In this document: one piece after another, positions 2 through 35,029 of the stretch | How the letters are laid out: each line of letters begins with the position of its first letter | Position numbering within the stretch: position 1 is the stretch's first letter | Virus record (IMG/VR): IMGVR_UViG_3300033120_000148 | Location: 11,764-75,763 of that record | Reading direction: 5' to 3' (one strand) | DNA from: a virus | Lineage: Duplodnaviria > Heunggongvirae > Uroviricota > Caudoviricetes > Crassvirales | Length of the DNA: 64,000 nucleotides | Notes under the pieces: generated by a model | The model's database searches: none | What the model was told of the DNA's origin: nothing | The model's input: only the letters and a program-made list of their open reading frames with translations | Translations under genes and position numbers: made by a program

Positions 2-36
2 TAAGGAGAGTTGATTTTTCAATTCTCCTTATTTTT
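2..36 (+). terminator. Rho-independent terminator: 12-bp hairpin (AAGGAGAGTTGA/TCAATTCTCCTT, one G.U) followed by ATTTTTTAT
   Basis: Inverted repeat plus T-tract read directly. Likely ends an upstream plus-strand gene outside the window. Confidence 0.5.
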
Positions 37-100
37 TATATATAGTAAATTACTATATAAGTACAATAAATTTAATAAAATCCTTGTTACATTGATATAT

Positions 101-121
101 TTTTAGTATCTTTGCAGCAAG
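101..121 (+). promoter_or_regulatory. Bacteroidota-type promoter, -7 element TATCTTTG (TAnnTTTG) inside extended motif TTTTAgTATCTTTGCAgCAA
   Basis: Sits ~28 nt upstream of the ATG at 142. A near-identical motif recurs at 6958-6978. Matches the Bacteroides sigma-A -7 consensus TAnnTTTG. Confidence 0.5.
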
Positions 122-141
122 GATTTTTAATATTATTAAAT

Positions 142-2089: not shown

Positions 2090-2090
2090 T

Positions 2091-6863: not shown

Positions 6864-6887
6864 TGTAGTATAATTATATATAATATA

Positions 6888-6937
6888 ATGGGTAGATTAA
6901 GTTAAATCTTAGTCTACCCATAATTATTTTAATTAAG
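6888..6937 (+). terminator. Rho-independent terminator: 14-bp stem (ATGGGTAGATTAAG / CTTAGTCTACCCAT, one U.G), 6-nt loop, then AATTATTTTAATT
   Basis: Perfect inverted repeat immediately after the TAA of the 1590-aa gene, followed by the promoter motif at 6958-6978. Confidence 0.6.
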
Positions 6938-6957
6938 TTATTGTATATATCAATAAT

Positions 6958-6978
6958 TTTATTTATCTTTGCAACAAA
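6958..6978 (+). promoter_or_regulatory. Bacteroidota-type promoter, TATCTTTG -7 element inside TTTTATTTATCTTTGCAACAA
   Basis: Second copy of the motif seen at 101-121. Sits ~19 nt upstream of ATG 6990. Confidence 0.5.
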
Positions 6979-6989
6979 ATTTATATAGT

Positions 6990-9416
6990 ATGACTAAGAA
7001 ACAAGTTATAAGAAAGTCTAATAGAACACTAAATATATTTGCAGACGGAGGAACTACTGATAAAAAACCTACTGACAGTAAAGGATCTATTATAAATTCA
7101 TTATCAGGAGTTGGAGGGTCACTAGTAGGATCTATTGGTGGTGGTCTAGTTGGTGGTGGATTATAGTCTGGAGCAGGCTCTGCAATAAGTGGAATTGGAT
7201 CTACTGTTGGTGGAGCAGTTGGAGCAGTTAATCCATTACTGGGTGGTATAATAACAGCAGGCTCTGGTATTGTAGGAGGTTTAACAAATAGGATGTTTGG
7301 TTCTAAATTAAATAATTAGAAAATATCAGATATTTAGAGTTAGAATAATACTTTAAATACTACTATGCTTGATAGTAGTAATAATGATACTGTAGCTAGT
7401 TAGTGGGCATCATAGGGTTTTGGTGATAACTTTACTAGATCTGATATAGGAAAAGATGGCTGGTTTAGTAATAAAGCTGAAAATAAATATAAAGAATTAT
7501 AGCTTCAATAGAATGTTGCTAGAAATAGAATGATGGAGTCATATAATAATGCTGCAGATAATGCTGATGAGACTTAGGACTAGTTAGCTTTAACTAACTT
7601 CGCTGCTTATGGTGGACCACTTAATATATATGCTGAAGGTGGTAATCTACATTAGAAAGCTGTTACATATAAAAATAGGTTAGAAGCTGTAAGAGGACCT
7701 ATGAATGATGACTATGACTATACAGGATACTATATGAAGTATCCTAAAAAAGCAGAGGCAATGATTAAAGGAGATAAAAAAGCTCATTTTACTGATGAAT
7801 TTAAATTACCAAATCATGCTACTTTCTCTGATGAATCTATATACTCTAAACAAAGAGGTGGTGGAACTTAGGAAGGTGGACACTGGGGTTATTCAAATGG
7901 ACATGATACATTTAATGTATCTCAAGATAACTTTAATAATAATCCTAATCTTGGTTAGTATTTTATGCAGAATGAACCTAGTAGTATTCCTATATATAAT
8001 GGGGGAATATTATTACCACAAGTTACTATTTAGGGTAATAGATTTGCAGAAGGTGGTGAACTAGATGATTTAAATAATCATGGAGCTACTTGGTCTAATG
8101 GAGTTACATATATTAATAATGGTGGAACTCATGAAGAAAACCCTAATGAAGGTGTTTAGGTTGGAGTAGATTCTTAGGGAAATCCTAATCTAGTAGAAGA
8201 AGGTGAGGTAAAATGGAATAACTATATATTTAGTAATAGAATATTTGCTAATAAAAAAGGCTTAAAAGCTAGTAATTTGCCTACATCTTTAGATAATAAT
8301 TCATTTGCTTCAGCAGCAGAGAAAATTAGTAAACAATCAAAAGAGATGCCTAATGACCCTATTAGTAAAAGATCATTAAATGTATCTCTCTCAAGATTAT
8401 AGTAGTTACAAGAAAGTATGAGACAAAAGCAAAATAAAACATAGAATAGTAATCCTAATAAATTTGCAATTGGAGGTCCAACTGGAGATACATTTGAAGC
8501 CCCATTCAAAATGAGAGCTGATGGTACTTATCCTATTAATGATACTTATAGTTTACCTATTTAGAACCCAACTAAAGATTCAACTAAACGTGGTAAATTA
8601 TCATTATCTGATACTGCAATATCAGATATGTATAATGATAATTTAGTTAAATCAGCTACAAATACTAAGCTTGGTTTTAAGGTACCAGATATGGTAACTA
8701 CAACTAAGAAACCTCCTAGTGATCCTAATAATTTTGACAAGGGATTACCATTTTTAAGATATGCCCCAGCTATAGGTTCTGGTGTAGCAGCTTTCACTGA
8801 TATGATGGGATGGACTAATAAACCAGACTACAGTGGAATAAATAAAATAAGTGACACTGTAAATCACATGTCACCTGCTTCATATAGACCCATAGGTGAC
8901 TATATGACATATAAGCCACTAGATAGAAATTACTATTAGAATATGCTTGACTCATAGGCTGAATCTACAAAGAGAGGTATAGTTGAATAGTCAGGTGGAA
9001 ATAGAGCTACAGCTATAGCAGGTTTACTTGCAGCAGATTATAATGCTTAGAGTAAAGTTGGTGAACTAGCTAGATAGGCAGAAGAGTATAATCAAGGACT
9101 AAAGGAAAGGGTTAAATCATTTAATAGAGGTACAAACTAGTATAATTCAGACTAGGCTCTAAAAGTAGATGAACTTAATATGAATCTTGATAGACTTAAA
9201 TATGAATCTTCTGTACAACAAGCACAAATGAGATAGGAAGCTTTAGCTAGAGCTACTGCTGCTAGAACTGCTAATATTTCTAACTTCTTTAATAACTTAG
9301 GTGGTATTGGAAGAGAGGATACACAGAAGAATTGGATTAGATCAAACCCTGGTTTCCTATATGATATTAGTGATAACGGTATATCTTATAAAAATAAAAA
9401 GAAAGGAGGTAATTAA
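6990..9416 (+). CDS. Virion structural protein, ~808 aa, Gly-rich N-terminus (GGSLVGSIGGGLVGGGLQSGAGSAISGIGSTVGGAVGAV), TAG recoded
   Basis: Frame 0 from ATG 6990 (the track's 6969 start is a TTG) to TAA 9414-9416. Contains track fragments 6969 and 8628. Many in-frame TAG, no TAA/TGA. Confidence 0.6.
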
Positions 9417-9417
9417 T

Positions 9418-11205
9418 ATGTCAGATTATAGTTTAGTTGTAAATTCACAATTTTAGCCATTTTCATATTAGGAAATGTTAGCTCCTGTGTTACAAGCAAC
9501 CTAGGCACAGCAAGATATAGAGAATCAGTATAGTATGCTTGATTCTGAGGCTAATACTATTTAGTAGAGAGCTTTAACAGATAGTAATTCTGAATGGGCT
9601 AAGAAATATACTACTTATACAAAATAGTTAGAGGACTCTGCTGCAGATTTAGCAGCAAATGGTTTAACTCCATCATCTAGGAGTTCTTTATTAAAATTAA
9701 AAAGAGACTATTCAAGCAATGTAAATCCTGCTTTAATGGCTATCCAAAGATAGGCTGAAATAGCAAGAACTTAGTAGGCTAAAAATGGTGAGGGAGTAAG
9801 AATGGTTTATGGAGCAATGCCTTCCATTGACTAGTTGATAGCTGATCCTAATTTAGATAGAGTTAGTTATAGTGGTAAGGACATTGAAGCTTCTGCTGCA
9901 AATTCTGCTGCTGCTGCTTCTGCAAGACATGTAATAGATAACTTTAAGAAAGACCCAGCTAATGCTGGTTGGATGAAACATATTAAAGAAACTGGATATA
10001 GTTCACAAGCATTTAATGCCTTACTTAATGAAGCTAAGAATTCAAGTGATCCTAATGTAAATATATTAGCATAGATTACAAATTAGGTTAAGCAACAATT
10101 TGGTAACTTTGAAGGAGTATCTGATGTAGATAAACATAGACTAGAAGGTGAAATACTATCAGGTTTATTCAAAGGTTCTGTATATAGAAATGAGGATAAC
10201 TATTAGACAGATCCTATCTATATGGCTAATTTACAATCTAGTCTTGAGGAAGGTAGATAGATTAGAGCTGAGAATAGAGCACTTGCTAGAGAGAACCCAG
10301 GTAATACATCTACTAATGGTGTAGCACCTAATCCTATTAATATGTATTCTCCTAAAGAGAAGAAGGAACAAGCTGATGCAATATCTAAATTTAAGCAGTA
10401 TTTCTATAGAGATAACTCTGGTTAGGTTAAAATGACTTATAAAGGACTACAAGAATATAGAAGAAATGCAGCTATAGTACCAACTGTAGCAGGGTCTGGT
10501 GGAGGAACAGCAGCTTTAATGAATGCAGAAACAGCTATGGGTAGAAAGAGAGGTTATCAACCTACTTAGTTCAAAGTATTTATGGATAAACTTGGTGCTA
10601 ATCATTATATAGATAGTAAGAAATTTAAAGGTGGTAAGGGTTGGCAACCAGGCAATGTAGGTAATCTTTGGTCTAGATATAGTTCTGCAAATAATGCAGG
10701 TAAATATGATGCTACTAAAGCTACTCAATATGAGTATAAAATTGCTAAAGATCAATAGGATCTTACAAAGGATAATATAGTTATGGCTTTAAAGAATTAG
10801 CCAGCATATGAAGTAGCATTTAATGGTACTACATTAGCTAGAACTCATAAAGTTCTTTCATATAGTGATCTATATACAAATGGTAGAGTAGTAGCTACAA
10901 GATTGAGTCCTTATGGTAATACATTTGTAGTCATTGATAAATCAGGAAAGGTTAGTGAATATGAAATGCCTCCTGGAATTAATCCTACTAATGAAGGTAA
11001 CAGAGATAAATTGCTAAAACAATTACCTACAATGTAGTAGGTATTAAAAACTGGCAAAGCTGGTAATCATATATTAAAGCCTAAGGAAAAGGAAGACTTA
11101 CAAAGTCTATATAATTAGAATATATAGAATGCTTACATGTATAACTCTTAGCTCAATGTAACTAATACTACAGAACCTTAGAAGGCTTATCCTTATTCTT
11201 ATTAA
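9418..11205 (+). CDS. Hypothetical virion protein, ~595 aa, TAG recoded
   Basis: ATG overlaps the previous stop (TAATATG). Frame 1 contains track fragment 9835 and ends at a triple TAA (11203-11211). Confidence 0.55.
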
Positions 11206-11213
11206 TAATAAAT

Positions 11214-14200
11214 ATGGGAACATTAAAATAGGTAAAATAGAAACCAATAGATATATTGAAAACTGGTCCTGCCAGTTTTAGAGAACTACAATAGGCTAAC
11301 CAGTCAAACTTTAGTCCTTAGTATTAGGCATTTGTAAATGACTTAAAGATTAAGTCTCAGCCAACATCATTATTTGATGCTGCTGCTTAGGCTTAGCAGG
11401 ATGTTGCTTCTCCATTAAATAATAGTGAAACACCATGGGGTAAAAGTAAATTTGATGCTACTTCAGCTAATGATAACACATTTAATAATTTAGGTGATAT
11501 TAGAGCTGAAAATGAACCTTGGTATGATAAAATAGGTGCAGGTATTTCTAAGGGAGCAGTACTAGCAGGTACTACTTTCTTAGATGGTACTCTTGGTTTA
11601 TTATATGGAGCAGGAACTGCAATTTCTCAAGGAAGAATATCAGGTATTTGGGATAATGATTTCTCAAGGTCTATGCAAAGTATTAATAATTATATGGAGA
11701 AAGAACTTCCAAATTATTATACTTAGAAAGAACAATAGGCAGCTTGGTATAGTCCAGATAATATATTTACAGCTAACTTCCTAGGAGATAAATTTATAAA
11801 GAACTTAGGATTTAGTATTGGTGCTTTTTATTCTGGTGGTGTTACAGCCTCTGGATTAAAATTAAGTCAATTACCATAGTTAATTGAAAAAGTAACAGGT
11901 ATAACAAATGCAGCTAGTCATGTAACTTCTGCTGTAGGTGCAACTATATCTGCTGTTAATGAAGGTAGAATAGAAGCCCTTAATAATTCAGGAGATTGGT
12001 ATAAGGCTTAGAAGACTATACTTGATGACAAATATAAATCAAGAATAGAGGCTATTTAGTAGTAGTATCAAGCTAATGCTAACAGACAAATGATTAAAAC
12101 TGCTGAGGGTTCTTATGTAGATCCTGCTTATTTACAATATAAGCAAGATATAGCTAGAGAATAGAATTCATATCAAGGTACTCTTAGAAAGATGAATGAA
12201 GACAGGTTACATATGGGCAATGTTGATTTATTAATGAACTTACCTATATTAACTGCTTCTAATCTTATATAGTTTGGTAAGATGTATGCTAATGGATTTA
12301 AGACTGCTAGAAAGACTACAAATATTACTGGAGGAATTGGTAATTATGCAGCTAATACATCTAATGCGAGAGCTGCTCTTGCATTCACTAAAAGTGCTTT
12401 ATCAGAAGGTAATGAGGAAGTACTTCAATAGGCTGCTAGTAATATATCTGGAGATTATTATGCTACAGATGTAAATAACTATTATAAAGCTAAAACTGAT
12501 CCTAAGGCAGCTAAAGATACTCTAAGTTGGACAAAAGCTTTTGCTTAGGGAATGAATGAAACATTAAATGATAACTCATCTTGGGAATAGTTCCTTATAG
12601 GTAGTATAACAGGTGCACTTGGTATGCCTAGATTTAGGTCTATTAAGAATGCAGAAGGTCATTTTCAGTTTCCAGTAACTTTAGAAGGAGGTGCTTATAA
12701 TCAGTTTAAAGATTATAGAGAGGAAGCAGCTAGAACTCAAGGAGTAGTAGATTATTTAAATAACAGAGTTAACTCCCCTGATTTTAAGAATTACTATCAA
12801 GGACTTGTTAGACATAATAAGTTCTAGAATGATATGAATTAGGCAGTAGATAATAATGATGATTTTAATTTCAAGAATGCTGAGCATTCTCAATTAGTTT
12901 CTGATGTTTCCATGTTTGCAAAAGCTGGAAAATTAGAAGATCTAAATACATTAGTGAAAGCAGCTTATGATACATCTGATGATAATTTAAAATCTATTAC
13001 TGAGAACACTACAACTAAAACTCCTAATGGTATATCTGGTCCATTTGTAGACTCTAGTGGTAATCCTATGTATGCTACTGAAGCAGGTAAATAGGAGATG
13101 ATTAATAAGCTTACTAAGTCTAAAGATGAGATAATGAAGGAAGTAAATAACTATAGTAAGATAAGAGACTAGATTAATGCAAGTACTAATGAAGCTCTTA
13201 CTGATGATTAGCTTGATGAATTAACTTGGATGACTTCTTAGATAGGTAACTTTGAAGACAGATCTACTGAGATGGCTAAGGATATTAAAACTTCTATATC
13301 TAAAGTTATAGGTAATCTTTCTTCTAAATTATCTTTGGCTACACAAATTAGACATCAAGAAGGTAAGGACCATGCAGATTTAACACCTGTTTACAGACAA
13401 GCAGATAAAGCAGTTATCAACTTAACTAAGACTATGGATAGTTTAAACTCACTACAAAGTCGAAGTGATGATTCTATGCTAAGTGCTTTAACTGATAACC
13501 CAGAAGTTGTAAATTACTTAAATAAGCAAATAGATAATCTAGATGAATCTGTACTAGATAAAGAATCTAAGAAAGATATAAATTAGAAATTGAATGATAT
13601 TCTTAAACTTGGTAAAGCTATAGATGTATTTAGAAGTAAACTAGATGAATACACCAATAACCCTGCTAAATAGTAGGAAGACCATGCTAAGATTGATACT
13701 GATAAAATAAAGGAAGAAGAGGCAAATAAGAAAGCATCTATAAAAGATAGATTAAGAAATGCTAAAGATTTATAGGAGTATAGATCTATATTAAGTGATG
13801 AGGAAGATGACACAGATGATGCTGTAAAAGACTTACAAAATGAGAACCATAACTTAACTATAACTAATAAAAAGATTAATAGTAGGTATAGAAGCTTGCA
13901 AAATGCTATACTTAATAATAAAGATATAGATGATGAAACTAAGTAGGATGCTCTTGATATGTTGGATAATCATTATAATAAAGCCAAATCACTTGGTGAA
14001 TTCAGAGATCCAAACTCAGCAAGTCTAACTGATGAAGACTACTTCAATCATGATACAGGATTTAATGAAGGGTCATCTAATGATAGATTTTAGAAAGCTA
14101 AATATGCAATTGATAAAGCTTTTGAAAAGGTAGTTAAGGATAATAACTTCATGAGGTCTCTAGCTTAGTAGCAGCCATTACAAGATATAGTTAGGCAGAC

Positions 14201-17200
14201 TACTGAAAAAAATGGAGTTAAAATAACTAAATATGGAAGAAGAAAAGGAGATAAAATAATTAATGGTACTGGTCCTAGCATAAGTAAAGATGATATTCCT
14301 GAATCAGAATTAGAAACTATTGAAGGCCTACTTGATGATATGGGAGATACAGCTAAGTTAGAACTGATTGAATTAAGAGAAAGGGATGGAAAATATTCTG
14401 GAACTGTAAGACTTAATGGGCAGATAAGTGGTGCTCCTATTAATGAAAAATTTGAATTTCTATTTGATAAAAATCCAGATAAACTGAGGGGTGTAGATAA
14501 AGAAGAAACAGGAGATAGTAAAACAGCAACAATACCAACAGAAGATAATTCAAATGAATTACCCAGGACAATTAATGAAATACCTGTAGGTGATTATTCA
14601 ATAGATGAAGTTAAAGAAGAGAATAAAAACTCTGATACTAATGATAAGAAACTTACATCTAAAGATAATTCTTAGTACTATATTCCTGCTGTACCAGAGT
14701 TGGATATTGAAGCTAGTAGAAATGGTGATTATAGAAACTTTGATGAAGTTAAAAAGGAGTAGAATCCTAAACTAGATTTCTCTAAAATATATAATTATTT
14801 ATCTAGTAATAATGCTTTTTCATATGTAAATGAAGGTAATCTTAAAGAAGGTGATAGATTAGGTTTTATGATAGATCCTAACTTTAGTGATACTACTATA
14901 TTTATTATTGATAAGAAAAATAATTAGATAGTAGGTTCTCTATTTGAGTCTGATTATAAACTAAAACAGTATGAAGGCTTGGAGCAATTAGTTAACAAGA
15001 TATATCAAGAATATAAAAATAGAGAAGATAGAAATTCTAAATTTATAGCTACTCCTACTACAAGAGTGTCTTAGATGCTTGTAGGTAGAATTCCATATAT
15101 TGCAGATGAAAAGAATCTAAAGAATGTAATAGAAGAAGGTAAAGCTAATAGTACTATTTTTGGCATAGTTAAAAATGGGTCTATTACTACTAATGAAGCT
15201 ATTCCTAGTGATTAGATTATGATGCACTCTGGATTAGATGGTAAAGAAGGTAGATTATATATGTTACTATCTAATGCTGCAGGTAAATATTCACCTGTAG
15301 CTGTGAGAGTAAAGCACTTTAATGCTGATGAATTTAATCTAGATGATGCTACTGTAGCAGAAACACCAATGGGTAAGAGTATTTCTAAAGCTATAAATGA
15401 TTTAGCTAGATCCTCATCTTAGGAAGACATAACTAATGCAATGGTTAATCTAATATAGGATATTCATCTGCAAGATGAGATAATTACTCCTATGGAGAAT
15501 AACAAAGGTAGAGGTATTCTTATAAGTTCTAAGGTCAAGGGAGCAGATGGTAAATATGAAATGGTTGAAATAGATGGTAAATAGTATATTAAAGAAACTA
15601 GAATACCTATTTACTTTACTAAAGAGGTTAAACCAGTAGAAAAGAATGGACTAAGTCTAGAATTTTCATCATTTGAAGCGGCTGATATTCCTAGTAGTAG
15701 TGTAGAGATGAAGCCTGTTTAGGATATAGTAAAGGAAATAACAAATGCTTTATATTCATTGAATAAACCTTTACAAGTAAGTACTGGAAGAATTAATTAG
15801 TCTGGATATAATGCTAGAATAATTAACTCAAATATACTTTCATCAAATATTAGTTCTACTAAAATTAAAGGAAGTTTCTTTACAACAGATTACTTTGATA
15901 AATCAGGAAATCTACATGCTGCTATAACAGTAGCAAATAATAGACCTTCAGTAGGAAGAAAAATTGAAACTGTTGTTGGTGGAAAAGAGAGTGCTATTCC
16001 AGGAACTCCTGTAAATCTTAATAATATATAGTACTATGTTGATTTATCTACTAAGGAAATAAGAGATAAATTCAATAATAAAGTTACTACTAATTAGGAT
16101 TTACTATTTAATCTAGCTTGGGTAAGAAATAACTATGGTAGATTAAAGAGTACTGGTGCTATTAAAAATAATAAAGTTTTATTGCCTGATGGTAGGGCAC
16201 TAGATATTAGTAAATAGAAGATATTAAGTGGAAAAGAGTATGATAAATTTATAGATTCATTAGATGCTGTAAAAGAGAGTACAGAAGCTAATTACTAGGA
16301 TGGATTAAAGGCTGTAGAGCAAATGCAAGAAAACTAGAAATTAGTTGATAGTCAGACCTATTCTATATTGGAAGATGATGGTAATTATTATGATTATACT
16401 CCTGCTGTAGATAAAGCACAATCTAGAGATACTATTTTAGACAATGGTCTTCACACATTAATACTATAGTTTTTTAATTCATCTGAACCTATAGTTAAGC
16501 CTGATACTATGACTAAGAAAGCCTATTAGGCATTAATAGATTAGCTAAATAATATTAAAGAAGCTTTAGAAAATAGAGGTGAGAGATTTATATCTAATAA
16601 TATAACATTATTCTATAAGTATCCAAATGGAGATAGAATAGCTGCTAAGGTAGATATAATGACTATGGATAAAGATGGTAGATTTAGATTATATGCTGTT
16701 AGAAAATAGTCTTAGAATAAAGATGATATACAGAAGATAACTAAAGAATTATCTATTATGTCAAATCTATTTAGTTCTCAATATAACTTGCCTATTTATT
16801 CTATGGCTATAATACCTTTCTCTGTAAAAACAAGAGGAAATAAGGTATCTGAGACTAAATTAGAAAAGGGTATATCTATCAAATAGAATGCAGGTACTGA
16901 TACACCAGCTATAGGTAATATATAGAAAGCTAAATCTACATTACCAATATTTGAAAGTTCCTTAGAAACTCTAAAACCTATTAATGATGTTAATACTGAC
17001 AACAGATCATTAGATTCTGATACAATAGGTTATTTCTAGATTGAAGGTAAGTTACATACTGGTTATTTAATGCCTATAGGTAATATTGAAGGTAATGAGT
17101 TATATTTAACTAGAACTGCCAATATGACAAAAGGATTTAAAGACACTGTAGCTCATGCTGCAACTTATAATTATTTTGTAGTATTTCCTAATGGTGAAAC

Positions 17201-17717
17201 ATTTAATATTAAGAATAATAGCATTACAAAAGATCCTAAGGAAATGGCTAAAACAGCTATTAATCTTTTAAGTAAAAATCCTAATAGAGTAAAGGATATG
17301 TCTACTTCTGATACATTACTTTATAAAAAAGGTGAAGAGGTAACTTAGGAAGTTGAAAAACCTAAATTAACTACTGCTAATCTATTATAGAGTAGTAATA
17401 ATAAGTTAACAGCTTCTCAATAGACTGTATTAAAAGAGTAGGCTGTAGCTGATGTAGATGAAGAATTTGAAGATGATTTGGATCTAGATGATATTACTAA
17501 TATAGGTGATTCTATAATGAGTGGTCAAAAGGCTGATATTACAGATTCTAATAATAGTAAAGATGATAGTAAGATTGATGTAATTACAGATATAGATTAT
17601 GATTCACTATCAAATGATGCTAAAAAGTCACTGACTTCAAAAGGTTGGACAAAAGCAAAGTGGAATAAAGTATCTATTGCAGAGAAGTAGAAAGCTCTAA
17701 ATTGTCTAGGTTTTTAA
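11214..17717 (+). CDS. Giant virion/tail-type protein, ~2167 aa, TAG recoded (dozens of in-frame TAG)
   Basis: Track fragments 12624, 12912, 13272, 14340, 15219, 17070 and 17478 all share frame 0. Read through, they are joined only by TAG codons, ending at TAA 17715-17717. Confidence 0.6.
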
Positions 17718-17763
17718 TTTGTTTGGTCATATTTCTAAGACTGTTAGGAATAAATTTTTTATA

Positions 17764-17803: not shown

Positions 17804-17810
17804 AGGAATT

Positions 17811-17877: not shown

Positions 17878-20800
17878 TTACTGCTTGAAGAATGGTATAG
17901 CCAATTCTGGTGCAATACCTCTTGTTACAGTGTTTCTCATTGGAGCTAGAGGACTTCTCATTAAGTACTTATAAGCCTTATTATGACCTTTAAATACACC
18001 ACTTTGCATAATAGCATTTTCACCTCCAATAGCCTCATAGTTATAAGGATTTATAACATTAAGTAAATCTAATGTTGATTGAATTGTCTGTATAGCAGCA
18101 GCAGGAGATTTAACTAATTTAAGACCCTCATCTATCATAGGTTTTCCTGGCACTAATACACCAATTTCATTTTGCAATCTTCTTAATTGATACTCAGCCA
18201 TTTTACCTGCCCAAGTACTATTTTTAGTGTCCCAATCAATTAAGCCTAGAGCTGTTATTATCATTAAATAATGTCCTACTTCTACTATAGCTCTCTTAAT
18301 ATTAGCTTTCTCAGTATTAGTTAATTCACTCCAAGATGAACCAATATCAAATTGAGATTGTTTTAAGTCTTTAGCTAATTGCATCATAAATCTACCTGCA
18401 GTTTTATAATAACCTTCAGTCCATTCTTGTAGATCCATATTATAAGTAGCTTCTTGAAATCTTCTATTTAAAGATGGTTTAACCCATTTTCTAAACATTA
18501 TAGCCATTCTACCTACAGCAAATTGTTGCATTGCACTTCTATCTGCTTTATTATAAACACCGTGCATTCTCTCATTAATTGCAGTAGTTTTTCTACTAAA
18601 AGCTATAATATCATCTCTAGTAAATTCAGATCCATCTTCTTTAGTATAACCATCTTTTACCTGTAACTTAGCTCCTAATTTCTTATTATTAGGATCAGTA
18701 TAAACTACTTCCATAGCATCCCATAGAGAAACTAATTTACCTTCTGGTGATTTCATTTTATATCTATCAGCAAGAGCTAATGAAGTTCTATTTTGCATCC
18801 AATGCTCACCAGCATTATTCATCATAAATAAAGCTGAACTACCAAACATTCTAGTGAACCATGTTTTTCTATCATAGTTCAACTCTTTAATCTCTGTTTC
18901 ATATTCCTGCATTACATTGAATAATTCATCCCATAGAGCTAGTTTTCCTACTTTAACTCTATTACCTATCTCTGCTAGATACTCTGGTAAAGCACTACCA
19001 TAATTTCTATCAGCATGTAAAGTATTAGATTCATTATAATACTCACCTGCTAAAGATTCAATTCTCATCATTATAGTACCAGTAGCAACATTAGAAATAC
19101 CTGACAATATATTTAGAGCCAGAGTATTAACAGAAGTTAATCTGTTAAATGTATCTGCTGTTTTAGCTTTATCTATTTTTGAATCACCAAAAGTACCTTC
19201 ATCCGCTATATATCTACCATATACTTGCATATTAAAGAAACTATTAAGTCTCTTCATGAACTTTGTTTTATCTCCTGAAATAGTTATAGGTGATTCTACC
19301 TTAGTTCCAAATACCTTAAATTTTTCCTTTAATGTCTTTCCACCTGAGGTCTGCAAGATCTTTCTTTCTCTTAGTAAATCTCTTCCTAATTCAAGTGTAT
19401 CTAGTACCTTATTCATTTGATTATAGTCATTAGCCATAGCTGCATAAGCAGTTAATGTTGACACTGCATCTGTTGATATATCATTATTACTTTCACCATC
19501 TTTTAGATTAGTATAGTAAATAGGCAATGACATAACTTCATTACCACTGAAATCTTTAGTAGCATGCTTATAACCAAAATCAGTGTCATCTGCTCTTCTT
19601 ATAAAAGAATCCTTTATACTTTCCCATATTTGTTTAGTTCCCGACTTTAAATCATCAGAGCCTTTAACTCTTTCAACTAGGTCTTTTCTAATCTTAACAG
19701 TATTTAAGAGCTTGGCATTAGGTAAATATGAATCTAGTGACTTCTTTATTTTCATAAATTTATCATAGAATTCTCTTTGTGCTGGAGTTAATTTCTTAAA
19801 AGCTTCACTACTATAAATTGAAATCTTAGGTCTATGTACACCATCTACAGTTTCAAAGTTCTCAGTAAACCATTTCTTTCTTTCTCTTTTTGCTTCTCTT
19901 TCTTCATTAGGATCAGATATACTAGGATATTTATCATGTAATCCTTGAGTCATCTCTTCATATTTCTTTTTATATAAAGAGTAATCAATTTCTGATATAT
20001 ATTTTCCAGTTAAATTACCTTCAGCATCTCTTTCAAACATCCATTCAGTATCTTTAATACCTGACTGCTCTAATGTCATTATAGCAGATTGTAACTCTTT
20101 AACAACATCTATAGTATCTAATCTAGCATTCTCTTTACTCTTTTTAACAGCTTGATCCATTATTTTTAGCATATAGTCTGTACTATCAGCCATTGAATCC
20201 AGCCAAAGATTAAAGAAAGAAATATCCTTACCAGCTTCTTTAACTATATCTTCAGCAGTCATTGTAGTACCTTTATATTTTCCAAAGGGAATAGTAATAC
20301 CATCACCTACAAATGGCTTAATAAAGCTAACAAATAATGGCATTGCAACTTCATTATAAGTTATAGATAAATCATTTAGTACCCCAGTAGCTTCATCTAA
20401 AACTTCTTTTAGTTCACTAGAGTACTGATTATCATCAAATCTACTTTCCTCTAGTACTGATTTTCTTATATCTTTAAATATAGGTTCAAAGCTACTCATA
20501 TAATTTCTTATATCTCTTAGAACTCCTGCCTTTTCATTTATTGATTTACTATCATTAGTAGAAGATCCTGCTAACATACTATTTAATCTAGAGTTTACTT
20601 TCTGTAGTTCATCTAGAGCATTCTTAGTAAATTCTGAAATACCATTAATTATTTCATTATTCTCTATACTTTCAGTAATATTATTTATTACTTCTCTTTG
20701 ATGTAATGTAAACTTGGCATTATTATTTCTAGTACTATATATACTCAATCTTTTTAACTCATTAGATTGAATACTCTTTAATAGGTCTCTAGTTTTACCT

Positions 20801-21930
20801 GCTCTTTCAGATAATTGATATAATCTATTAGTAACTTTAATATTCTTTAAATCTAAGCTATTTGATAGATCACCATTAAGCAGATCATCTGCTATAGTAT
20901 TAGCAATACTATTAGTATTAAGTACAGCCTTTTGAATATCTGTAGTACCTATATTATAAAAGAAATCCCTTATTACATTTATTAATCTTATTAGAATAGA
21001 TTTATATGGCTTACTAGGAATACTTGCTACATCTAGTAAGTGTTTAGCCACTAACTTTCCTGCTGCTTCTTTAGCCATATCTGCAGGATTACCATTATAC
21101 ATTATACTGTAGTCATCATAATCCTCTCCTAATATTTCATTAATTAAATCATTATCTACAATAGAATTAATTAATCTATTAACTAAAGGGTTATCACCTA
21201 ATGCTTCTACAGCAAAATGGGAGAATTCTTCTGGTAAAGCCTTCTCTCCTGCTTCTCCTTGGGCTAATCTAATTAACTGAATTATACCATCTACAGAAGC
21301 TTTAGCTAATTCAAAATCAGTAACTCCATTAATATTTAATCTTCTCTCTAAATCATTTAGAGCACCTATTGATATATTTTTACTCTCTAATATTTCTCTT
21401 AATCTAGTATTAAGAGCTTCATTATAACTCATATTAGAAGCATTTAGAGAGTTGTAAGCATTTCTTCTTTCTACCTTAGGAGCAATATATATTTCTCCTG
21501 TCTCAGAGTCTTGTACTTTTACTACTGAAGCTACAAAGTTATCTCTGTAGTCAGAAGTAGTATTAAATTCAATAGCTTTTTGTTTAAACTTGTTATAGTT
21601 TTCTTGGTTATTTATATTTAAAGAAACTCTATCAGACCCCTTTTTAAAATAACCAATATCTTTATTTAGTTTTGTAAGTACATTACTTTCTGCAATGACT
21701 TTATTTAAACCTGCTTTGTACATTAAACTACTTATAGTAGGTTCTCCATTTTCATCAAGATTTAATTTACTATTCCAGTTATTAATAAAATCACTAGATT
21801 TGGTTTTTAAATAAATATCTCTAGCAGATTCTCTAGTAGTTAGTGATAGTAGACCCTTAAAGAGTCTACTATCTACTAATTCATTATTTTTGTTTTTTAC
21901 TTTAGGAATAATTGCACACTGTAACTTCAT
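17878..21930 (-). CDS. Giant hypothetical protein, 1350 aa (virion/RNAP-associated type in crAss-like phages?)
   Basis: Uninterrupted standard-code ORF with TAA stop. Sits immediately downstream of the 2401-aa gene with an 18-nt spacer. Confidence 0.7.
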   Translation of the reverse strand: MKLQCAIIPKVKNKNNELVDSRLFKGLLSLTTRESARDIYLKTKSSDFINNWNSKLNLDENGEPTISSLMYKAGLNKVIAESNVLTKLNKDIGYFKKGSDRVSLNINNQENYNKFKQKAIEFNTTSDYRDNFVASVVKVQDSETGEIYIAPKVERRNAYNSLNASNMSYNEALNTRLREILESKNISIGALNDLERRLNINGVTDFELAKASVDGIIQLIRLAQGEAGEKALPEEFSHFAVEALGDNPLVNRLINSIVDNDLINEILGEDYDDYSIMYNGNPADMAKEAAGKLVAKHLLDVASIPSKPYKSILIRLINVIRDFFYNIGTTDIQKAVLNTNSIANTIADDLLNGDLSNSLDLKNIKVTNRLYQLSERAGKTRDLLKSIQSNELKRLSIYSTRNNNAKFTLHQREVINNITESIENNEIINGISEFTKNALDELQKVNSRLNSMLAGSSTNDSKSINEKAGVLRDIRNYMSSFEPIFKDIRKSVLEESRFDDNQYSSELKEVLDEATGVLNDLSITYNEVAMPLFVSFIKPFVGDGITIPFGKYKGTTMTAEDIVKEAGKDISFFNLWLDSMADSTDYMLKIMDQAVKKSKENARLDTIDVVKELQSAIMTLEQSGIKDTEWMFERDAEGNLTGKYISEIDYSLYKKKYEEMTQGLHDKYPSISDPNEEREAKRERKKWFTENFETVDGVHRPKISIYSSEAFKKLTPAQREFYDKFMKIKKSLDSYLPNAKLLNTVKIRKDLVERVKGSDDLKSGTKQIWESIKDSFIRRADDTDFGYKHATKDFSGNEVMSLPIYYTNLKDGESNNDISTDAVSTLTAYAAMANDYNQMNKVLDTLELGRDLLRERKILQTSGGKTLKEKFKVFGTKVESPITISGDKTKFMKRLNSFFNMQVYGRYIADEGTFGDSKIDKAKTADTFNRLTSVNTLALNILSGISNVATGTIMMRIESLAGEYYNESNTLHADRNYGSALPEYLAEIGNRVKVGKLALWDELFNVMQEYETEIKELNYDRKTWFTRMFGSSALFMMNNAGEHWMQNRTSLALADRYKMKSPEGKLVSLWDAMEVVYTDPNNKKLGAKLQVKDGYTKEDGSEFTRDDIIAFSRKTTAINERMHGVYNKADRSAMQQFAVGRMAIMFRKWVKPSLNRRFQEATYNMDLQEWTEGYYKTAGRFMMQLAKDLKQSQFDIGSSWSELTNTEKANIKRAIVEVGHYLMIITALGLIDWDTKNSTWAGKMAEYQLRRLQNEIGVLVPGKPMIDEGLKLVKSPAAAIQTIQSTLDLLNVINPYNYEAIGGENAIMQSGVFKGHNKAYKYLMRSPLAPMRNTVTRGIAPELAIPFFKQ

Positions 21931-21947
21931 ATCTTATACTTAATTAA

Positions 21948-24900
21948 TTAACAAATAGGTTCACCATTGGCATCCTTGTAATCATCATTAGATTGTATTG
22001 AATTAATACCTGAATGAATATTAGGAGCATCTTCTAATTCTGATCCATAAACTGCTCTAAAAGCATCCTTTGGAATATCCATAATACCTTTTATATCATC
22101 AGCAGATGGTTCTTGCTTTTCCATAGATTCATCACTTGAGTCATCTATATTATCTGTAGAATCTTCCTCATTATAATCAGTATTATTATTATCCTCAGTT
22201 ACACTATTACCAGTATCATTTATATCAGTATTACTATTAGATGGCAATACAGAATTCATAGCATCTACATCTTTACCATATTCATACTCTAAGAAATTAT
22301 TAACTTTTCCTAGAGGTTTAATTCTATAGTAAGTTGCCGTATTTAATTCACTGCCTTCATCTTTCTTATAATAGAAGAAGTCATCTTTTCCTTTTACTGC
22401 TATATAATCAAGAAAATCATATATAGTTGTACCATTTACAGTAATAGCAGTTTTAATAAAAGGATCTAAGTCAACTCTTGGGAAATTCCCATCAATAGTA
22501 AATTCTTTTATTGCTTTATTATCCTTAACTATATTATCTTTTATTGAACCTGTTTTTATCTCTGGTACTAATCTTCTATTATTTAAGTGATTACTAATAT
22601 ATTGACCTATAAATTCTTTATAACTATCATTAGTATTTAGTAAACCTCTTAATGTAGAAATATAATCAGGTACAGCTAATCTTAAAGATGTTGGAGCTAA
22701 ATGAATGAATGAATTAGCACCAAAAGAAAATCCATTTCTATAGAAGTTATATCTAAATAAATTTAGAGCTAACTTTTGTGCTTCCTCATTCTTCATATAG
22801 AGTAATGATTCCCAATCTCTCATATATCTCTCTTTAAGAGTAGAACTTAGTTGACCTACATTCTTAAATACAAGAGTTTCTACTGGATTGGTTCTAGAAG
22901 GCTTAACAACTTGTAATCTCTTAATAAAATCAAGAGAAGCTATATCTTCATTATTAGTTACAATCTTCTTAAATTCAGAAGGAAAATTATTAATAAAGTT
23001 TCTTCTTTTATCTTCAGAAGTTATCTCTCCAAACTCACTACCAAAGAATTTAGTTTTAGACATTACATATACTAGTAGATCATTATAAATACTATTAATA
23101 GTTTTTACATCTAATTTACCAGTTTTAGAGATGTCATAGAATCCATTAAAGCCATCATAGTTATTACCCTTACCAGTAAATACTTCCTTAAATGACTTTG
23201 TATAATTAGGAAAATACTTTGAGAAAATACCCTCTGTCCCAGTTATACCACAGGTAAAAGCTGCTTGTATATAAGGCAAAGGACTTTCATTTAAAGTATT
23301 TCTTAAATTAGATATTGACATACTCTTACTATCAATTACCTTTACTACATCTGCATTATTCAAAGGAAAACTTAGAGTATCCATCTTATCATAAAGTGTC
23401 TCAACTTTCTGTATCTTATTCATAGTATGAGCTATAGTAGGACCTGCAGCTCCAGCTGGAGTATCAGATCTTGTAGCTTGAACAACTAGACTAAGAGCAT
23501 CTGCTGAGTTCATTATTCTTTGAAATAGTACTCCAATAGCTAATTGATTTCTAGAGAATTCTATTGTATCAGCTTTACTTCTATTATTATTTTGTAGTAA
23601 ATACTGAGCTAATTCCTCATTACTAAAACTTCTTCCAGCATAGTTATCATAAGATAGTATCTTAGATACACTAGATCTTTTAGCATATTTACTTAGAACA
23701 TTCTTAATAGCAGTATCTTTGTTTATACCACTTCTATAATTTCTAAAATAATAATTAGTCATGTCTTTTACAATAGGCTGACTCATAAGTAAACCTATTT
23801 CAACAGGAGTATAACCTAATCTTGATAATAACATAGAAGCATCAGAAGTAAATAGATTTTGATTAATATCTGCTAGTACTTGATCCTTAACATTATCTAC
23901 TGAAGCAGCAAGAAAACCTGCATTATTTCTAGAAATAAATTCTCCTTCAGGATTCTTTATTTCATGTAAAGAAGTTAAAGATTTACCATTAAGAACAAAT
24001 TTACCTGCAGAATTTAATTCTAACTTAGTATGCTGTATTAGAGCATGATTAGAGTTATGATTTGCATACATCTTAATCAATTCTCCACCAGTCATATTTT
24101 GTTGATGAAAATAAACTTGTGTCCTAGGAGATAAAGGATTTATAAACTTCCTATTCTTTTCTGCCAGTTTCTCTAGTACCTTAACATTAGTGATATTTAA
24201 TAATGTTTCTAATACAGATTGACTAGGAGAATTTGACATACCTTTTAAATCTTCTCTTAAAGATTCTATAGTAGAATTTTGTAATATAGATACAATCTTA
24301 GCTGCTCTTTTCTGATAATCAAATCCACCAGGATTAAGAATTTTAGGAGCAGTATCAGGATTAGTTAGTACTCCATACATCATATCAATAATCAGATTAT
24401 TTCTAGCTGCTAAAGAATTCTCTTCTGGCTTTAAATTAAAATCATATTTTATTTTGTATAAAGAGGTTCTTTGCTTCCTATAGTTTTCTTTATTACTTCT
24501 GAACCACTCTTTAAATGAAGGGTCTTCATCTTCATTTAATTCATTTGCTAATTGGCTATTAGAGAATGAAGACATTATAGAGTGATAGGCTGCATTTGAT
24601 TTAGCAAAATCTTCTCTAGCCTGTCTTATATTATACTTAGATATACCAAATTCAGGTAACATAATATATAATTTATCTACATCAAAATCTGAACCTGATA
24701 AGGCAGTAATCTCTGAAGGTAACATTATAGCTGAACCATTCTGTTGAGGAAGAAAACCCTTGATATACAGAGGAACCATACTATATTTATCTTCAGTTGG
24801 AACTCTATATCCTATTAACTTTCTAAGATCCTCAGGTAATTTAGACACATCTAATTGATGAGTTTCTGGATTCATTAATGGTTCATAGAAGTCTCTACTG

Positions 24901-33099: not shown

Positions 33100-33170
33100 A
33101 ATCTTTTTTTTATTATCCTACAAAGGTACAATAATAAATTGATATATGCAAATAATTCCACTGAAATAGA

Positions 33171-33970: not shown

Positions 33971-35029
33971 CACCCATACTAGGGTGGACTATCCCTTCAC
34001 CTTATTTATAAAAACTTAGGTGTACCTATTATAGTCTCTGCACATTTCTATCTACTTTGAAAATTACCATTTAGGTGGATAGACTTTGCTCAGGGTTATC
34101 ATGCCAGATTTTCCCTGAATTTAAGGTATTTACACACTTCTACTTTCATAGAAGGAGAGCCATTTATTGTATTTTCTTTTTATAAAAATACAGGCATTAA
34201 AATATAACATACTACCTATAAATAAAACATCTTTTATTTTATAAACTTCTATATAATATAATTTATTACCATAATTATTAGTTCTTTCTCTTATATAAGA
34301 AGTAATATTATATTTATCTAAAAAATATTTTATTTGTTTTATAAAGTCCAAAGATTTACCACATATAAAAAAGTCAAGATGACCGCTACTTGGATGAAAA
34401 CCTCCATCACCATCAAATATGCCTCTTAATATGTTCCAATTTATAGGTGTATAAATTTTACAATTATAACTTTTATTATAGAAATTGCCTTTCCTTCTTA
34501 GCCAACACTCAGCATCATCATTTACAAATGCTACACTGTACATATAAGATGAATTAATTTTTTGAAGTACTTTTGATACTTTCAAAGAAGGGGATACAAA
34601 GTCTCTAAATTTTTCAACTATGTATCCATCCCTCTCATTTAATCCAAGAGATATACTATAAGTATATTTAGTACCACTTTTTTTACTAATATTTCCATCT
34701 GTAAGTAATAACCCAAGAAAGTAATCAGATAGTTCATCATTACTTTTAAATGGATTATGTTTACATAATCTTTGTACCTTCTGTGTACTTCTTAGAGGTA
34801 TATTATATCTCATAAGGACTCTTCTAATAGAAGTATTATAAGTATTCCACTTCTTTGCAATTTCTACTGTATTTAATCCTTTTTTATAGTCTTCTATAAT
34901 AGAGGATTCTTTTTCTTTTGAAAATTTACTCATATCTACATATTTAAATTAATATGCAAATATAAGCATTATAATCGTAATAACCAAATTATTTATAAAA
35001 TTTATTATGTTATATTAGTATTTTACTAA
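33970..35029 (-). mobile_element. Group I intron (~1.06 kb) inserted in polA immediately after motif A, carrying a LAGLIDADG homing endonuclease ORF
   Basis: Minus-strand 3' part contains group I core elements tgCAGAGACTAtaa (R-like) and AAGGGATAGTCC (S-like), whose GACTA/TAGTC halves can form P7. Exon 1 ends ..CDYSAEEL and exon 2 resumes (R)LGADIY..GDTHNMFA, which together match DYSQIELRxLAH. The HEG has its own ATG/TAA and is flanked by noncoding sequence. Confidence 0.7.
34130..34933 (-). CDS. LAGLIDADG homing endonuclease (intron-encoded)
   Basis: Two LAGLIDADG motifs: LGLLLTDGNIS and LRGIFDGDGGF. Confidence 0.85.
   Translation of the reverse strand: MSKFSKEKESSIIEDYKKGLNTVEIAKKWNTYNTSIRRVLMRYNIPLRSTQKVQRLCKHNPFKSNDELSDYFLGLLLTDGNISKKSGTKYTYSISLGLNERDGYIVEKFRDFVSPSLKVSKVLQKINSSYMYSVAFVNDDAECWLRRKGNFYNKSYNCKIYTPINWNILRGIFDGDGGFHPSSGHLDFFICGKSLDFIKQIKYFLDKYNITSYIRERTNNYGNKLYYIEVYKIKDVLFIGSMLYFNACIFIKRKYNKWLSFYESRSV

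What the first reader, a model, noticed from the sequence alone, without database searches (positions are those of the whole stretch)
101..121. Conserved late promoter motif containing the Bacteroides -7 element, pointing to a Bacteroidota host
TTTTAgTATCTTTGCAgCAA (101-121) and TTTTATTTATCTTTGCAACAA (6958-6978) precede the first and fifth plus-strand genes. The core TATCTTTG matches the Bacteroides sigma-A -7 consensus TAnnTTTG. A third TAnnTTTG (TACCTTTGCAAAA) lies 24 nt upstream of the 2401-aa gene on the minus strand (29178-29185). Gene starts mostly lack Shine-Dalgarno sequences, which also fits Bacteroidota.
Basis: partly seen in the sequence, partly recalled or inferred. Interest (0 to 1): 0.5.

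Follow-up and report, generated by a model that had tools for sequence, protein, structure and literature searches.

The report
Host-type promoters in a crAss-like phage
The two repeated motifs are ordinary Bacteroidota-style promoters of a crAss-like phage, a promoter class already described; they are not specific to late genes, but the first one sits inside a conserved RNA-type hairpin that I did not find described.

Summary
TATCTTTGCARCAA occurs exactly at 107-120 and 6964-6977, and TACCTTTG lies 24 nt before the 2401-aa gene.

TAnnTTTG alone is not enriched (104 hits, 87 expected). The full Bacteroidota sigma-A layout, TTG-N20-TAnnTTTG, occurs five times (1.3 expected). All five sites are intergenic, in sense orientation, and 18-27 nt before an ATG.

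They precede two TAG-recoded late operons (crAss001 gp40-44 and gp45-47 homologues), the standard-code gp50/gp49 operon, and two homing-endonuclease genes. So this is the general host-RNAP promoter, not a late-specific element.

The same layout sits at the orthologous gaps in Bacteroides phages crAss001, DAC15 and 'frurule', in phi14:2, and in 58 of 60 metagenomic relatives. Drobysheva et al. already described this middle/late promoter class. A Bacteroidota host is well supported: every cultured relative infects one, there is no Shine-Dalgarno signal, and sigma-70-type sites are not enriched.

New here: the gp40 promoter is nested in a hairpin (77-127). It is conserved in 43 distinct orthologous sequences with strong covariation, has G·U wobbles valid only on the sense strand, and is followed by a T-rich tail. 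It is most likely an intrinsic terminator or 3'-end hairpin enclosing the next promoter.

The parts
2..31 (+). Classical intrinsic-terminator-like hairpin followed by TTTTTTAT. It ends whatever operon lies upstream of the window.
   Evidence: Terminator scan: 13 pairs, loop of 4.
77..127 (+). Conserved hairpin that encloses promoter P1. The 5' arm at 77-88 ends in the -33 TTG. The 3' arm at 116-127 starts just after the -7 box and is followed by a T-rich tail.
   Evidence: RNA fold -19.2 kcal/mol, z -5.4. Covariation in 43 orthologous sequences.
84..114 (+). Promoter P1 for the gp40-gp44-like late operon: -33 TTG at 84-86, 20-bp spacer, -7 box TATCTTTG at 107-114. The inferred start site is about A119.
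   Evidence: Orthologous sites. The -12 to -5 position of the box comes from PMC9723704.
142..6863 (+). Late operon 1, four TAG-recoded genes: 142-852 (gp40-like virion protein), 852-1382 (gp42-like HU/IHF-like protein), 1382-2089 (gp43-like protein), 2091-6863 (gp44-like protein).
   Evidence: blastp against crAss001 gives 38-52% identity.
6888..6921 (+). Intrinsic-terminator-like hairpin at the end of operon 1.
   Evidence: 14 pairs, loop of 6, tail AATTATTTTA.
6941..6971 (+). Promoter P2 for the gp45-gp47-like late operon: TTG at 6941-6943, N20, TATCTTTG at 6964-6971. The inferred start site is about A6976.
   Evidence: Conserved in 11 of 12 relatives, 17-21 nt before the ATG. No enclosing hairpin (z -1.15).
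6990..17717 (+). Late operon 2, three TAG-recoded genes: gp45-like (6990-9416), gp46-like (about 9415-11205), gp47-like giant protein (11214-17717).
17878..29153 (-). Standard-code operon: the 2401-aa gp50-like gene (29153-21948) and the 1350-aa gp49-like gene (21930-17878).
   Evidence: blastp gives 52% and 58% identity to crAss001 gp50 and gp49. These genes are middle-class in crAss001 (PMC8375218).
29178..29208 (-). Promoter P3 for the gp50/gp49-like operon: TTG at 29208-29206, N20, TACCTTTG at 29185-29178. An AT-rich inverted repeat at 29234-29208 abuts the -33 element.
   Evidence: Conserved in 10 of 11 annotated relatives and in 58 of 60 metagenomic relatives. The abutting inverted repeat was read by eye and was not run through a fold or a scan.
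33121..33151 (-). Promoter P4: TTG-N20-TACCTTTG, with 21 nt between the box and the ATG of a 236-aa HNH/EndoVII-like endonuclease gene (33099-32389).
   Evidence: phrog_3322, E 1e-34.
34957..34987 (-). Promoter P5: TTG-N20-TATATTTG, with 23 nt between the box and the ATG of a LAGLIDADG endonuclease ORF (34933-34130). It lies inside a group I intron.

Best explanation
The window is part of a crAss-like phage of the Steigviridae type. It is syntenic with Bacteroides phage crAss001 gp40-gp50, and its late genes read TAG as glutamine.

The flagged motif is the -7 box of promoters used by the host RNA polymerase with its primary sigma factor, in the Bacteroidota layout: -33 TTG, 20 bp, -7 TAnnTTTG, start about 5 nt after the G. 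Five such promoters lie in the window. Two head the late virion operons (P1, P2). One heads the gp50/gp49 giant-protein operon (P3). Two head homing-endonuclease genes (P4, P5). So this is the phage's general middle/late promoter, not a late-specific signal.

Shown: the sequence layout, its position relative to genes, and its conservation in relatives. Inferred from experiments on relatives: that host RNA polymerase uses these sites, and where transcription starts.

P1 is also nested in a 20-25-bp hairpin formed by the sense strand, followed by a T-rich tail. I infer that read-through RNA from the upstream capsid operon folds into this hairpin and ends there, as an intrinsic terminator or a 3'-end stabiliser. 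The same DNA then launches the next operon. I give this function about 50%. The hairpin itself is well supported.
For: Composite motif: 5 hits against 1.3 expected, all intergenic, in sense orientation, 18-27 nt before an ATG. Sigma-70-type sites are not enriched, 94 against 107 expected.

The orthologous gaps in crAss001 carry the same layout. Across 11 annotated relatives, the gp45 promoter is present in 11 of 12 sequences and the gp50 promoter in 10 of 11, window included. For gp50, 58 of 60 metagenomic relatives keep it, always with N20.

In the whole crAss001 genome about 12 of 25 hits are intergenic and in sense orientation just upstream of genes or of the tRNA array.

In phi14:2, the gap before g075, the gene for which Drobysheva et al. 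mapped a middle promoter by primer extension, reads TTG-N20-TACTTTTG (bioRxiv 10.1101/2020.03.07.982082). In that phage middle and late transcription is rifampicin-sensitive.

Temporal classes in crAss001: gp49 and gp50 are middle, structural genes and gp47 are late. TAG recoding is confined to the plus strand: 162 in-frame TAG against 0 on the minus strand.

Hairpin: 43 distinct sequences; the 8 outer pairs are 91.6% paired; 54 double-change cells against 15 in shuffles (0 of 500 reach it); slid controls give at most 64% paired. RNAalifold finds the same helix independently. G·T/T·G pairs number 26 against 2 A·C/C·A. Fold energies are -16 to -28 kcal/mol with z from -4.7 to -9.6. In 37 of 43 sequences at least 5 of the 8 bases after the stem are T. 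The IAS and cr108_1 hairpins pass the terminator scan, on the sense strand only. In crAss001 no separate terminator lies between the gp39 stop codon and the hairpin, and none is visible in the roughly 20 nt of flank held for the other relatives. The other operon gaps have a hairpin just upstream of the promoter.
Against: There is no transcript 5' or 3' end data for this phage, and its host is unknown.

The window already has a classical terminator (2-31) 45 nt upstream of the P1 hairpin, so here the hairpin is at best a second terminator.

In some relatives the T tail is weak (for example GGTCTAATTG), and in phi14:2 the enclosing hairpin is weak (z -2.1).

The cells counted for covariation are not independent evolutionary events.

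Nothing in the sequence explains why P1 and P2 would fire later than P3.
Confidence: 0.8

Rival explanations
1. The 14-20-nt resemblance between the two plus-strand copies marks a distinct late-promoter class. A phage-encoded late factor would read it in addition to, or instead of, host sigma-A.
For: The two copies share TATCTTTGCARCAA exactly. Both head TAG-recoded late operons. crAss001 encodes putative transcription regulators. Late genes do start later than middle genes in crAss001.
Against: The same TTG-N20-TAnnTTTG(C/T)A precedes middle genes and endonuclease genes. TAyMTTTGCA is the consensus of all 34 sites. By eye, the aligned gp45 (late) and gp50 (middle) promoter sets show no clear separating position. 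The 'CAA' after copy 1 is explained by hairpin pairing. No further copies appear with up to 2 mismatches.
Confidence: 0.12
2. The inverted repeat around P1 acts at the DNA level. It would be a palindromic operator for a dimeric regulator, for example the HU/IHF-like proteins encoded just downstream. Or it would be a cruciform that switches the promoter on or off.
For: The repeat brackets exactly the -33 and -7 elements. The operon it heads encodes an HU/IHF-like protein, and from general knowledge such proteins bind bent or cruciform DNA. The window has a separate terminator upstream.
Against: The arm sequences vary freely with compensation (TCC/GGA, CCC/GGG, CCA/TGG, CTA/TAG, CTG/CAG, GACC/GGTC). 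That pattern fits base pairing, not a conserved protein half-site. Mismatches are G·T 26 times against A·C 2 times, so only the sense strand keeps its pairing, whereas a cruciform or a duplex operator would constrain both strands equally. At alignment column 25, U or C pairs with the invariant G of the -7 box.
Confidence: 0.15
3. The P1 hairpin is a single-stranded-DNA promoter for the phage's virion RNA polymerase, by analogy with the hairpin promoters of phage N4.
For: The phi14:2 virion RNA polymerase transcribes only single-stranded or denatured DNA in vitro, and no early promoter motif is known for it.
Against: The gp40 operon is middle or late and rifampicin-sensitive in the studied relatives, not early. 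The pairing is kept on the sense strand, which is the non-template strand for this operon. The stem is 20-25 bp with a 4-8-nt loop, unlike N4's 5-7-bp stem and 3-nt loop (from my own knowledge). The invariant positions are exactly the sigma-A elements.
Confidence: 0.03

Closest known systems
Bacteroides/Bacteroidota primary sigma (sigma-A) promoters: -33 TTTG and -7 TAnnTTTG (Bayley et al. 2000, as cited in PMC4747536; position -12 to -5 in PMC9723704)
   Same: The -7 box TAnnTTTG, a -33 TTG or TTTG, and a 19-21-bp spacer (here 20). The leaders are short, A-rich and lack Shine-Dalgarno sequences.
   Different: The phage sites add a preferred CA after the box, a T-rich 'tttact' before it, and often a CTTA block 7 nt upstream of the -33 element. 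Use by host sigma-A is inferred, not shown, for this phage.
Middle/late promoters of crAss-like phages (phi14:2 and 'beta' crAss phages; Drobysheva et al., bioRxiv 10.1101/2020.03.07.982082)
   Same: Same phage family. The sites are intergenic and in sense orientation upstream of the same homologues: the RNA polymerase, IHF-subunit, portal and tRNA genes. The motif is tripartite. In phi14:2, middle and late gene transcription is rifampicin-sensitive, and the mapped middle promoters were also transcribed in vitro by E. coli sigma-70 RNA polymerase.
   Different: This is a new, divergent genome: at most 65% amino-acid identity on its best-conserved protein. I could not see their logo or site list. 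Their text mentions no hairpin or inverted repeat.
Intrinsic (Rho-independent) terminators
   Same: A sense-strand stem-loop with a G+C core, followed by a T-rich tail and placed at an operon boundary. Two orthologues pass a generic terminator scan.
   Different: The stem is unusually long (20-25 bp) and AT-rich, and it contains a complete promoter. In the window it has internal loops and is not picked up by the scan. The T tail is weak in some relatives.
Phage N4 hairpin promoters for the virion RNA polymerase
   Same: A promoter associated with a DNA hairpin, in a phage that packages its own RNA polymerase.
   Different: The strand, the stem and loop sizes and the temporal class all differ. 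The invariant bases here are sigma-A elements.
Bacteroides invertible (phase-variable) promoters flanked by inverted repeats
   Same: A TAnnTTTG promoter bracketed by inverted repeats.
   Different: Only about 27-31 bp lie between the arms, against the sub-200-bp invertible regions described in PMC8375218. No recombinase gene is apparent near it. The wobble pairs point to RNA-type pairing.

Membership tests
Bacteroidota sigma-A promoter | A -7 box TAnnTTTG | tested here: met
   Present at all five sites.
Bacteroidota sigma-A promoter | A -33 TTG/TTTG 19-21 bp upstream of the -7 box | tested here: met
   Spacer is exactly 20 at all five sites. Found 5 against 1.3 expected. N20 in 30 of 34 sites from 12 genomes.
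Bacteroidota sigma-A promoter | Sites located upstream of genes, in sense orientation, and enriched there | tested here: met
   All five lie in the 3.3% of the window that is intergenic, 18-27 nt before an ATG.
Bacteroidota sigma-A promoter | Transcription starts about 5 nt after the box and depends on host RNA polymerase with sigma-A | not testable with these tools
   Only indirect support: primer extension and rifampicin data for phi14:2 and RNA-seq classes for crAss001.
crAss-like middle/late promoter class (Drobysheva et al.) | Sites found upstream of homologues of the phi14:2 gp66-type RNA polymerase gene, the IHF-subunit operon and the portal and tRNA genes in Steigviridae | tested here: met
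   Orthologous positions in crAss001, DAC15, IAS, frurule and others, and upstream of phi14:2 g075.
crAss-like middle/late promoter class (Drobysheva et al.) | A match to their published tripartite logo | tested here: inconclusive
   The figure and the supplementary file are not held. My own consensus has three blocks, CTTA-N7-TTG-N20-TAyMTTTGCA.
Late-specific phage promoter | The motif is confined to late genes, or has a late-only extension | tested here: not met
   The same layout precedes the middle-class gp50 operon and two endonuclease genes. No further copies of the extended 14-mer were found.
Intrinsic terminator (P1 hairpin) | A stable stem-loop on the transcribed sense strand | tested here: met
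   Energies -16 to -28 kcal/mol, z -4.7 to -9.6. Covariation. Wobble asymmetry 26 to 2.
Intrinsic terminator (P1 hairpin) | A U-rich tract immediately 3' of the stem | tested here: inconclusive
   At least 5 T in 8 bases in 37 of 43 sequences, but part of the tract pairs with an upstream A-run, and some tails are weak.
Intrinsic terminator (P1 hairpin) | RNA 3' ends form there | not testable with these tools
   Needs Term-seq or 3'-RACE.
N4-type hairpin promoter | A short hairpin (5-7 bp, 3-nt loop) on the template strand, used for early genes | tested here: not met
   The stem is 20-25 bp, the pairing is preserved on the sense strand, and the operon is late or middle.
Invertible promoter | Inverted repeats flanking an invertible segment of up to about 200 bp, with a site-specific recombinase | tested here: not met
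   Only about 27-31 bp lie between the arms. Neighbouring genes are virion proteins.

The most novel reading that the evidence does not exclude
The hairpin around the gp40-operon promoter is more than a compactly placed terminator. It would be a conserved coupling device. The RNA end of the highly expressed capsid operon and the start of the next virion/IHF operon are written in the same 50 bp. Termination, or hairpin formation on the displaced sense strand, would then set or gate firing of the embedded promoter. This would be a promoter-in-terminator module that I did not find described for phages of Bacteroidota.
Probability: 0.25. Interest if true: 0.6.

Novelty: new member of a known kind. 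Interest (0 to 1): 0.38.

Why it matters
The promoters give a practical rule for annotating operons and predicting hosts of uncultured crAss-like phages: TTG-N20-TAnnTTTGCA about 20-30 nt before a start codon. They also show that code-15 late genes and standard-code middle genes share one promoter type. Timing must therefore be set elsewhere, for example by TAG suppression at the level of translation or by factors still unknown.

The hairpin-nested promoter is a family-wide structured element with clear covariation. It can be tested directly in crAss001 or DAC15, both of which can be cultured. Results could show how these abundant gut phages balance capsid against tail and cargo gene expression.

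Tried and rejected
- **gp45-like protein against viral contigs:** no confirmed relative, so I switched to annotated phage records.
- **Exact-match searches for the same phage:** a 27-mer in viral contigs and a 33-mer in metagenome contigs both found nothing. Protein-based searches found at most 55% (gp40-like) and 65% (gp49-like) identity. The rest of this genome, including any suppressor tRNA and the other late promoters, could not be examined.
- **TAnnTTTG alone:** not enriched, so rejected as evidence.
- **Sigma-70-type consensus:** not enriched.
- **The extended 14-mer as a wider motif:** no further copies.
- **Enclosing hairpins at the other promoters:** absent in the window (z -1.6 to +0.5). 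Among the seven other crAss001 promoters folded, only the one before gp23 has a weaker promoter-spanning hairpin. The one before gp27 has a terminator-like hairpin overlapping its -33 element.
- **Whole-window Rfam scan at gathering threshold:** nothing found, although a focused scan later found a group I intron.
- **337-nt gap at 51938-52274:** no Rfam match and no unusual fold.
- **Literature search for a hairpin-embedded crAss promoter:** two keyword searches found nothing relevant. This was not exhaustive.
- **CRISPR-spacer host assignment:** not possible with the tools available.

Full report
**1. What the window is**

Under the standard code, the plus strand from 1 to 17.8 kb breaks into short ORFs. 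If TAG is read through, it resolves into seven long genes starting at 142, 852, 1382, 2091, 6990, about 9415 and 11214. Together these carry 162 in-frame TAG codons.

The minus strand (17878-64000) is intact under the standard code. It has no in-frame TAG and uses TAG five times as a stop codon.

With TAG translated as Q, the plus-strand products match crAss001 gp40, gp42, gp43, gp44, gp45, gp46 and gp47, in that order. The convergent 1350-aa and 2401-aa genes match gp49 and gp50. Identities range from 32% to 58%. TAG positions align with Q in crAss001 at 30 of 118 sites, against a 4.7% background.

Nucleotide and protein searches find only Steigviridae. The cultured ones infect Bacteroides intestinalis, B. 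thetaiotaomicron, B. cellulosilyticus or Cellulophaga baltica. The nearest relatives in the viral and metagenome collections reach at most 55% (gp40-like) and 65% (gp49-like) amino-acid identity. This is therefore a new lineage of a known family.

**2. The observation**

Both 20-21-nt strings are present, each one base off the stated coordinates. The 14-mer TATCTTTGCARCAA is exact at 107-120 and 6964-6977. The third box, TACCTTTG, is at 29185-29178 on the minus strand, 24 nt before the ATG of the 2401-aa gene.

TAnnTTTG alone is uninformative in this 29% G+C sequence: 104 hits against 87 +/- 9 expected.

All three sites also have a TTG exactly 20 bp upstream of the box. The composite TTG-N20-TAnnTTTG occurs five times, against 1.33 expected (1 of 300 shuffles reaches 5). 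All five sites are intergenic, in sense orientation, with 18-27 nt between the box and a start codon. They are:
- 84-114 (+)
- 6941-6971 (+)
- 29208-29178 (-)
- 33151-33121 (-)
- 34987-34957 (-)

Only 3.3% of the window is intergenic. Sigma-70-type sites are not enriched (94 against 107 expected). SD-like words occur before 7 of 61 genes, against 6.3 expected, and the leaders are A-rich and G-poor.

**3. What the sites are**

The layout is the primary-sigma promoter of Bacteroidota. TAnnTTTG occupies -12 to -5 relative to the start site (PMC9723704; Bayley et al. as cited in PMC4747536). This places the inferred starts at about A119, A6976 and A29173.

The same layout lies in the orthologous gaps of crAss001: between gp39 and gp40, between gp44 and gp45, and upstream of gp50. 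Across eleven annotated relatives, and counting the window itself, the gp45 promoter is present in 11 of 12 sequences, 17-21 nt from the ATG. The gp50 promoter is present in 10 of 11, at 22-31 nt. For gp50, 58 of 60 metagenomic relatives keep it, always with N20.

In the complete crAss001 genome, about 12 of 25 hits lie just upstream of genes or of the tRNA array, in sense orientation.

A consensus from 34 sites in 12 genomes reads CTTA-N7-TTG-N20-(tttact)TAyMTTTGCA.

This promoter class has been published. Drobysheva et al. (bioRxiv 10.1101/2020.03.07.982082) mapped middle promoters of phi14:2 by primer extension. They showed that middle and late transcription is rifampicin-sensitive. They also reported 126 similar sites in 'beta' crAss phages, including IAS and crAss001, upstream of the RNA polymerase, IHF-subunit, portal and tRNA genes. 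The sequence upstream of phi14:2 g075, which heads the operon containing the gp40 homologue g074, reads TTG-N20-TACTTTTG.

**4. Not late-specific**

In crAss001, gp49, gp50 and the replication genes are middle-class. The structural genes and gp47 are late (PMC8375218). In the window, the late class is independently marked by TAG recoding.

P3, which drives the standard-code gp50/gp49 operon, has the same architecture as P1 and P2.

P5 lies inside a group I intron (Rfam RF00028, 54.6 bits, E 1.4e-13, at 34160-33967). That intron splits a family-A DNA polymerase gene, and P5 sits with 23 nt between its box and the ATG of the intron's LAGLIDADG ORF. P4 precedes an HNH/EndoVII-like endonuclease gene.

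By eye, the aligned gp45 and gp50 promoter sets show no clear separating position.
- TAyMTTTGCA is the general consensus.
- 'CAA' in copy 1 is a pairing partner of the -33 TTG (see section 5), while 'CAACAAAAT' in copy 2 is specific to gp45 promoters.

**5. The unexpected part: P1 sits inside a conserved hairpin**

In the window, AAAATCCTTGTT (77-88) pairs with AGCAAGGATTTT (116-127). The whole promoter folds into one hairpin at -19.2 kcal/mol, z -5.4.

Every orthologous gp40 promoter I examined shows the same arrangement with different arm sequences:
- crAss001: AAAACCCTTG / CAAGGGTTTT
- cr106_1: AAAACCATTG / CAATGGTTTT
- cr85_1: AAAACTATTGCAA / TTGCAATAGTTTT
- cr111_1: AAACTCTTGCAAATAT / ATATTTGCAAGAGTTT
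- frurule: AAGACCTTGTG / CACAAGGTCTT
- cr108_1: a 22-bp stem

I aligned 43 distinct sequences from annotated phages and IMG/VR (alignment A2). The results were:
- The eight outer pairs are 91.6% paired.
- There are 54 double-change cells, against 15.3 in shuffles (0 of 500 shuffles reach it).
- Slid partners give at most 64% paired.
- RNAalifold predicts the same helix independently and adds pairs between the -33 TTG and the CA after the -7 box. It also pairs a U or C with the invariant G of the box (22 U·G, 19 C-G).
- Non-Watson-Crick cells are G·T or T·G 26 times and A·C or C·A twice. The pairing is therefore preserved on the sense strand only.

The invariant columns are exactly the sigma-A elements. 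Both constraints, promoter and hairpin, act on the same 50 bp.

Full-length folds of nine sequences, the window and eight relatives, give -16 to -28 kcal/mol, z -4.7 to -9.6, and are followed by U-rich tails. In 37 of 43 sequences at least 5 of the 8 bases after the stem are T. The IAS and cr108_1 hairpins pass a generic terminator scan, on the sense strand only.

The other promoters in the window lack such a structure (z -1.6 to +0.5). Their gaps instead have a hairpin just upstream. In crAss001 the -33 element of the promoter before gp27 lies in the loop of such a hairpin, so overlap between terminator and promoter occurs to varying degrees.

**6. Mechanism**

An RNA that contains both arms can only come from read-through of the upstream capsid operon. 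My preferred reading is an intrinsic terminator or 3'-end hairpin that encloses the promoter of the next operon.

Points against this reading:
- The window already has a classical terminator at 2-31.
- Some tails are weak.
- The hairpin around the phi14:2 g075 promoter is weak (z -2.1).

A palindromic operator or a cruciform fits the free variation of the arms and the sense-only wobble pairs poorly. An N4-like single-stranded promoter fails on strand, on stem and loop size, and on temporal class.

The text of Drobysheva et al. mentions no hairpin or inverted repeat. Two keyword searches found no description either. Those searches were not exhaustive.

**7. Verdict**

The promoter class is already known, and this phage is a new member. 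The hairpin-nested gp40 promoter is the one feature worth following up experimentally.

Noticed in passing
window 142-17717 (+) versus 17878-64000 (-): The genetic code is split by module. The seven plus-strand late genes carry 162 in-frame TAG codons (27.9 per 1000) and all end in TAA. The minus-strand genes have none and use TAG as a stop five times. TAG aligns with Q in crAss001 orthologues at 30 of 118 sites, against a 4.7% background. No tRNA gene lies in the window, so any suppressor tRNA must be elsewhere in the genome. This phenomenon is known for crAss-like phages (PMC10136315).
   Followed up: partly
window 36400-33171 (-), intron core 34160-33967: A group I intron (Rfam RF00028, 54.6 bits, E 1.4e-13) splits a family-A DNA polymerase gene into ORFs 36400-35015 and 33977-33171. 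It carries a LAGLIDADG endonuclease ORF (34933-34130) with its own sigma-A-type promoter (34987-34957). The whole-window Rfam scan at gathering threshold missed the intron.
   Followed up: partly
window 33099-32389 (-): A free-standing HNH/EndoVII-like endonuclease gene (phrog_3322, E 1e-34) lies directly after the polymerase exon 2. It also has its own TTG-N20-TACCTTTG promoter (33151-33121). Two of the five promoters in the window therefore serve mobile endonuclease genes.
   Followed up: partly
window 51938-52274 (-): A 337-nt gap with no called ORF of 50 or more codons in the replication module, somewhat richer in G+C than its surroundings. It has no Rfam match at E<=1, an unremarkable fold (z -1.2) and no canonical promoter. 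Its function is unknown.
   Followed up: partly
window 17718-17877: The convergent junction between the late and middle modules holds back-to-back terminator-like hairpins: 17761-17792 (+) and 17843-17818 (-), the latter also read as 17819-17842 on the plus strand.
   Followed up: no
L092 (crAss001) 16896-16956 and L001 5022-5082: The crAss001 promoter before gp23 also folds into a promoter-spanning hairpin (-11.8 kcal/mol, z -3.9). The promoter before gp27 has its -33 TTG in the loop of a terminator-like hairpin (z -4.8). Overlap of terminators and promoters may be a general habit of these genomes.
   Followed up: partly
L046, L054, L059, L062, L066, L083 (IMG/VR relatives): In six relatives the gp40-like gene has no promoter directly upstream, because another ORF abuts it. 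In cr108_1 and cr111_1 the hairpin and promoter sit together, as a unit, upstream of inserted exonuclease or HNH genes.
   Followed up: partly
L008 (Dulem virus 41, lemur faeces) 10307-10420 and 21947-21978: This divergent relative lacks the canonical TTG-N19-21-TAnnTTTG before its gp45-like and gp50-like genes, and its gp50/gp49 genes are on the same strand as the late genes. Its host or its promoter usage may differ.
   Followed up: no
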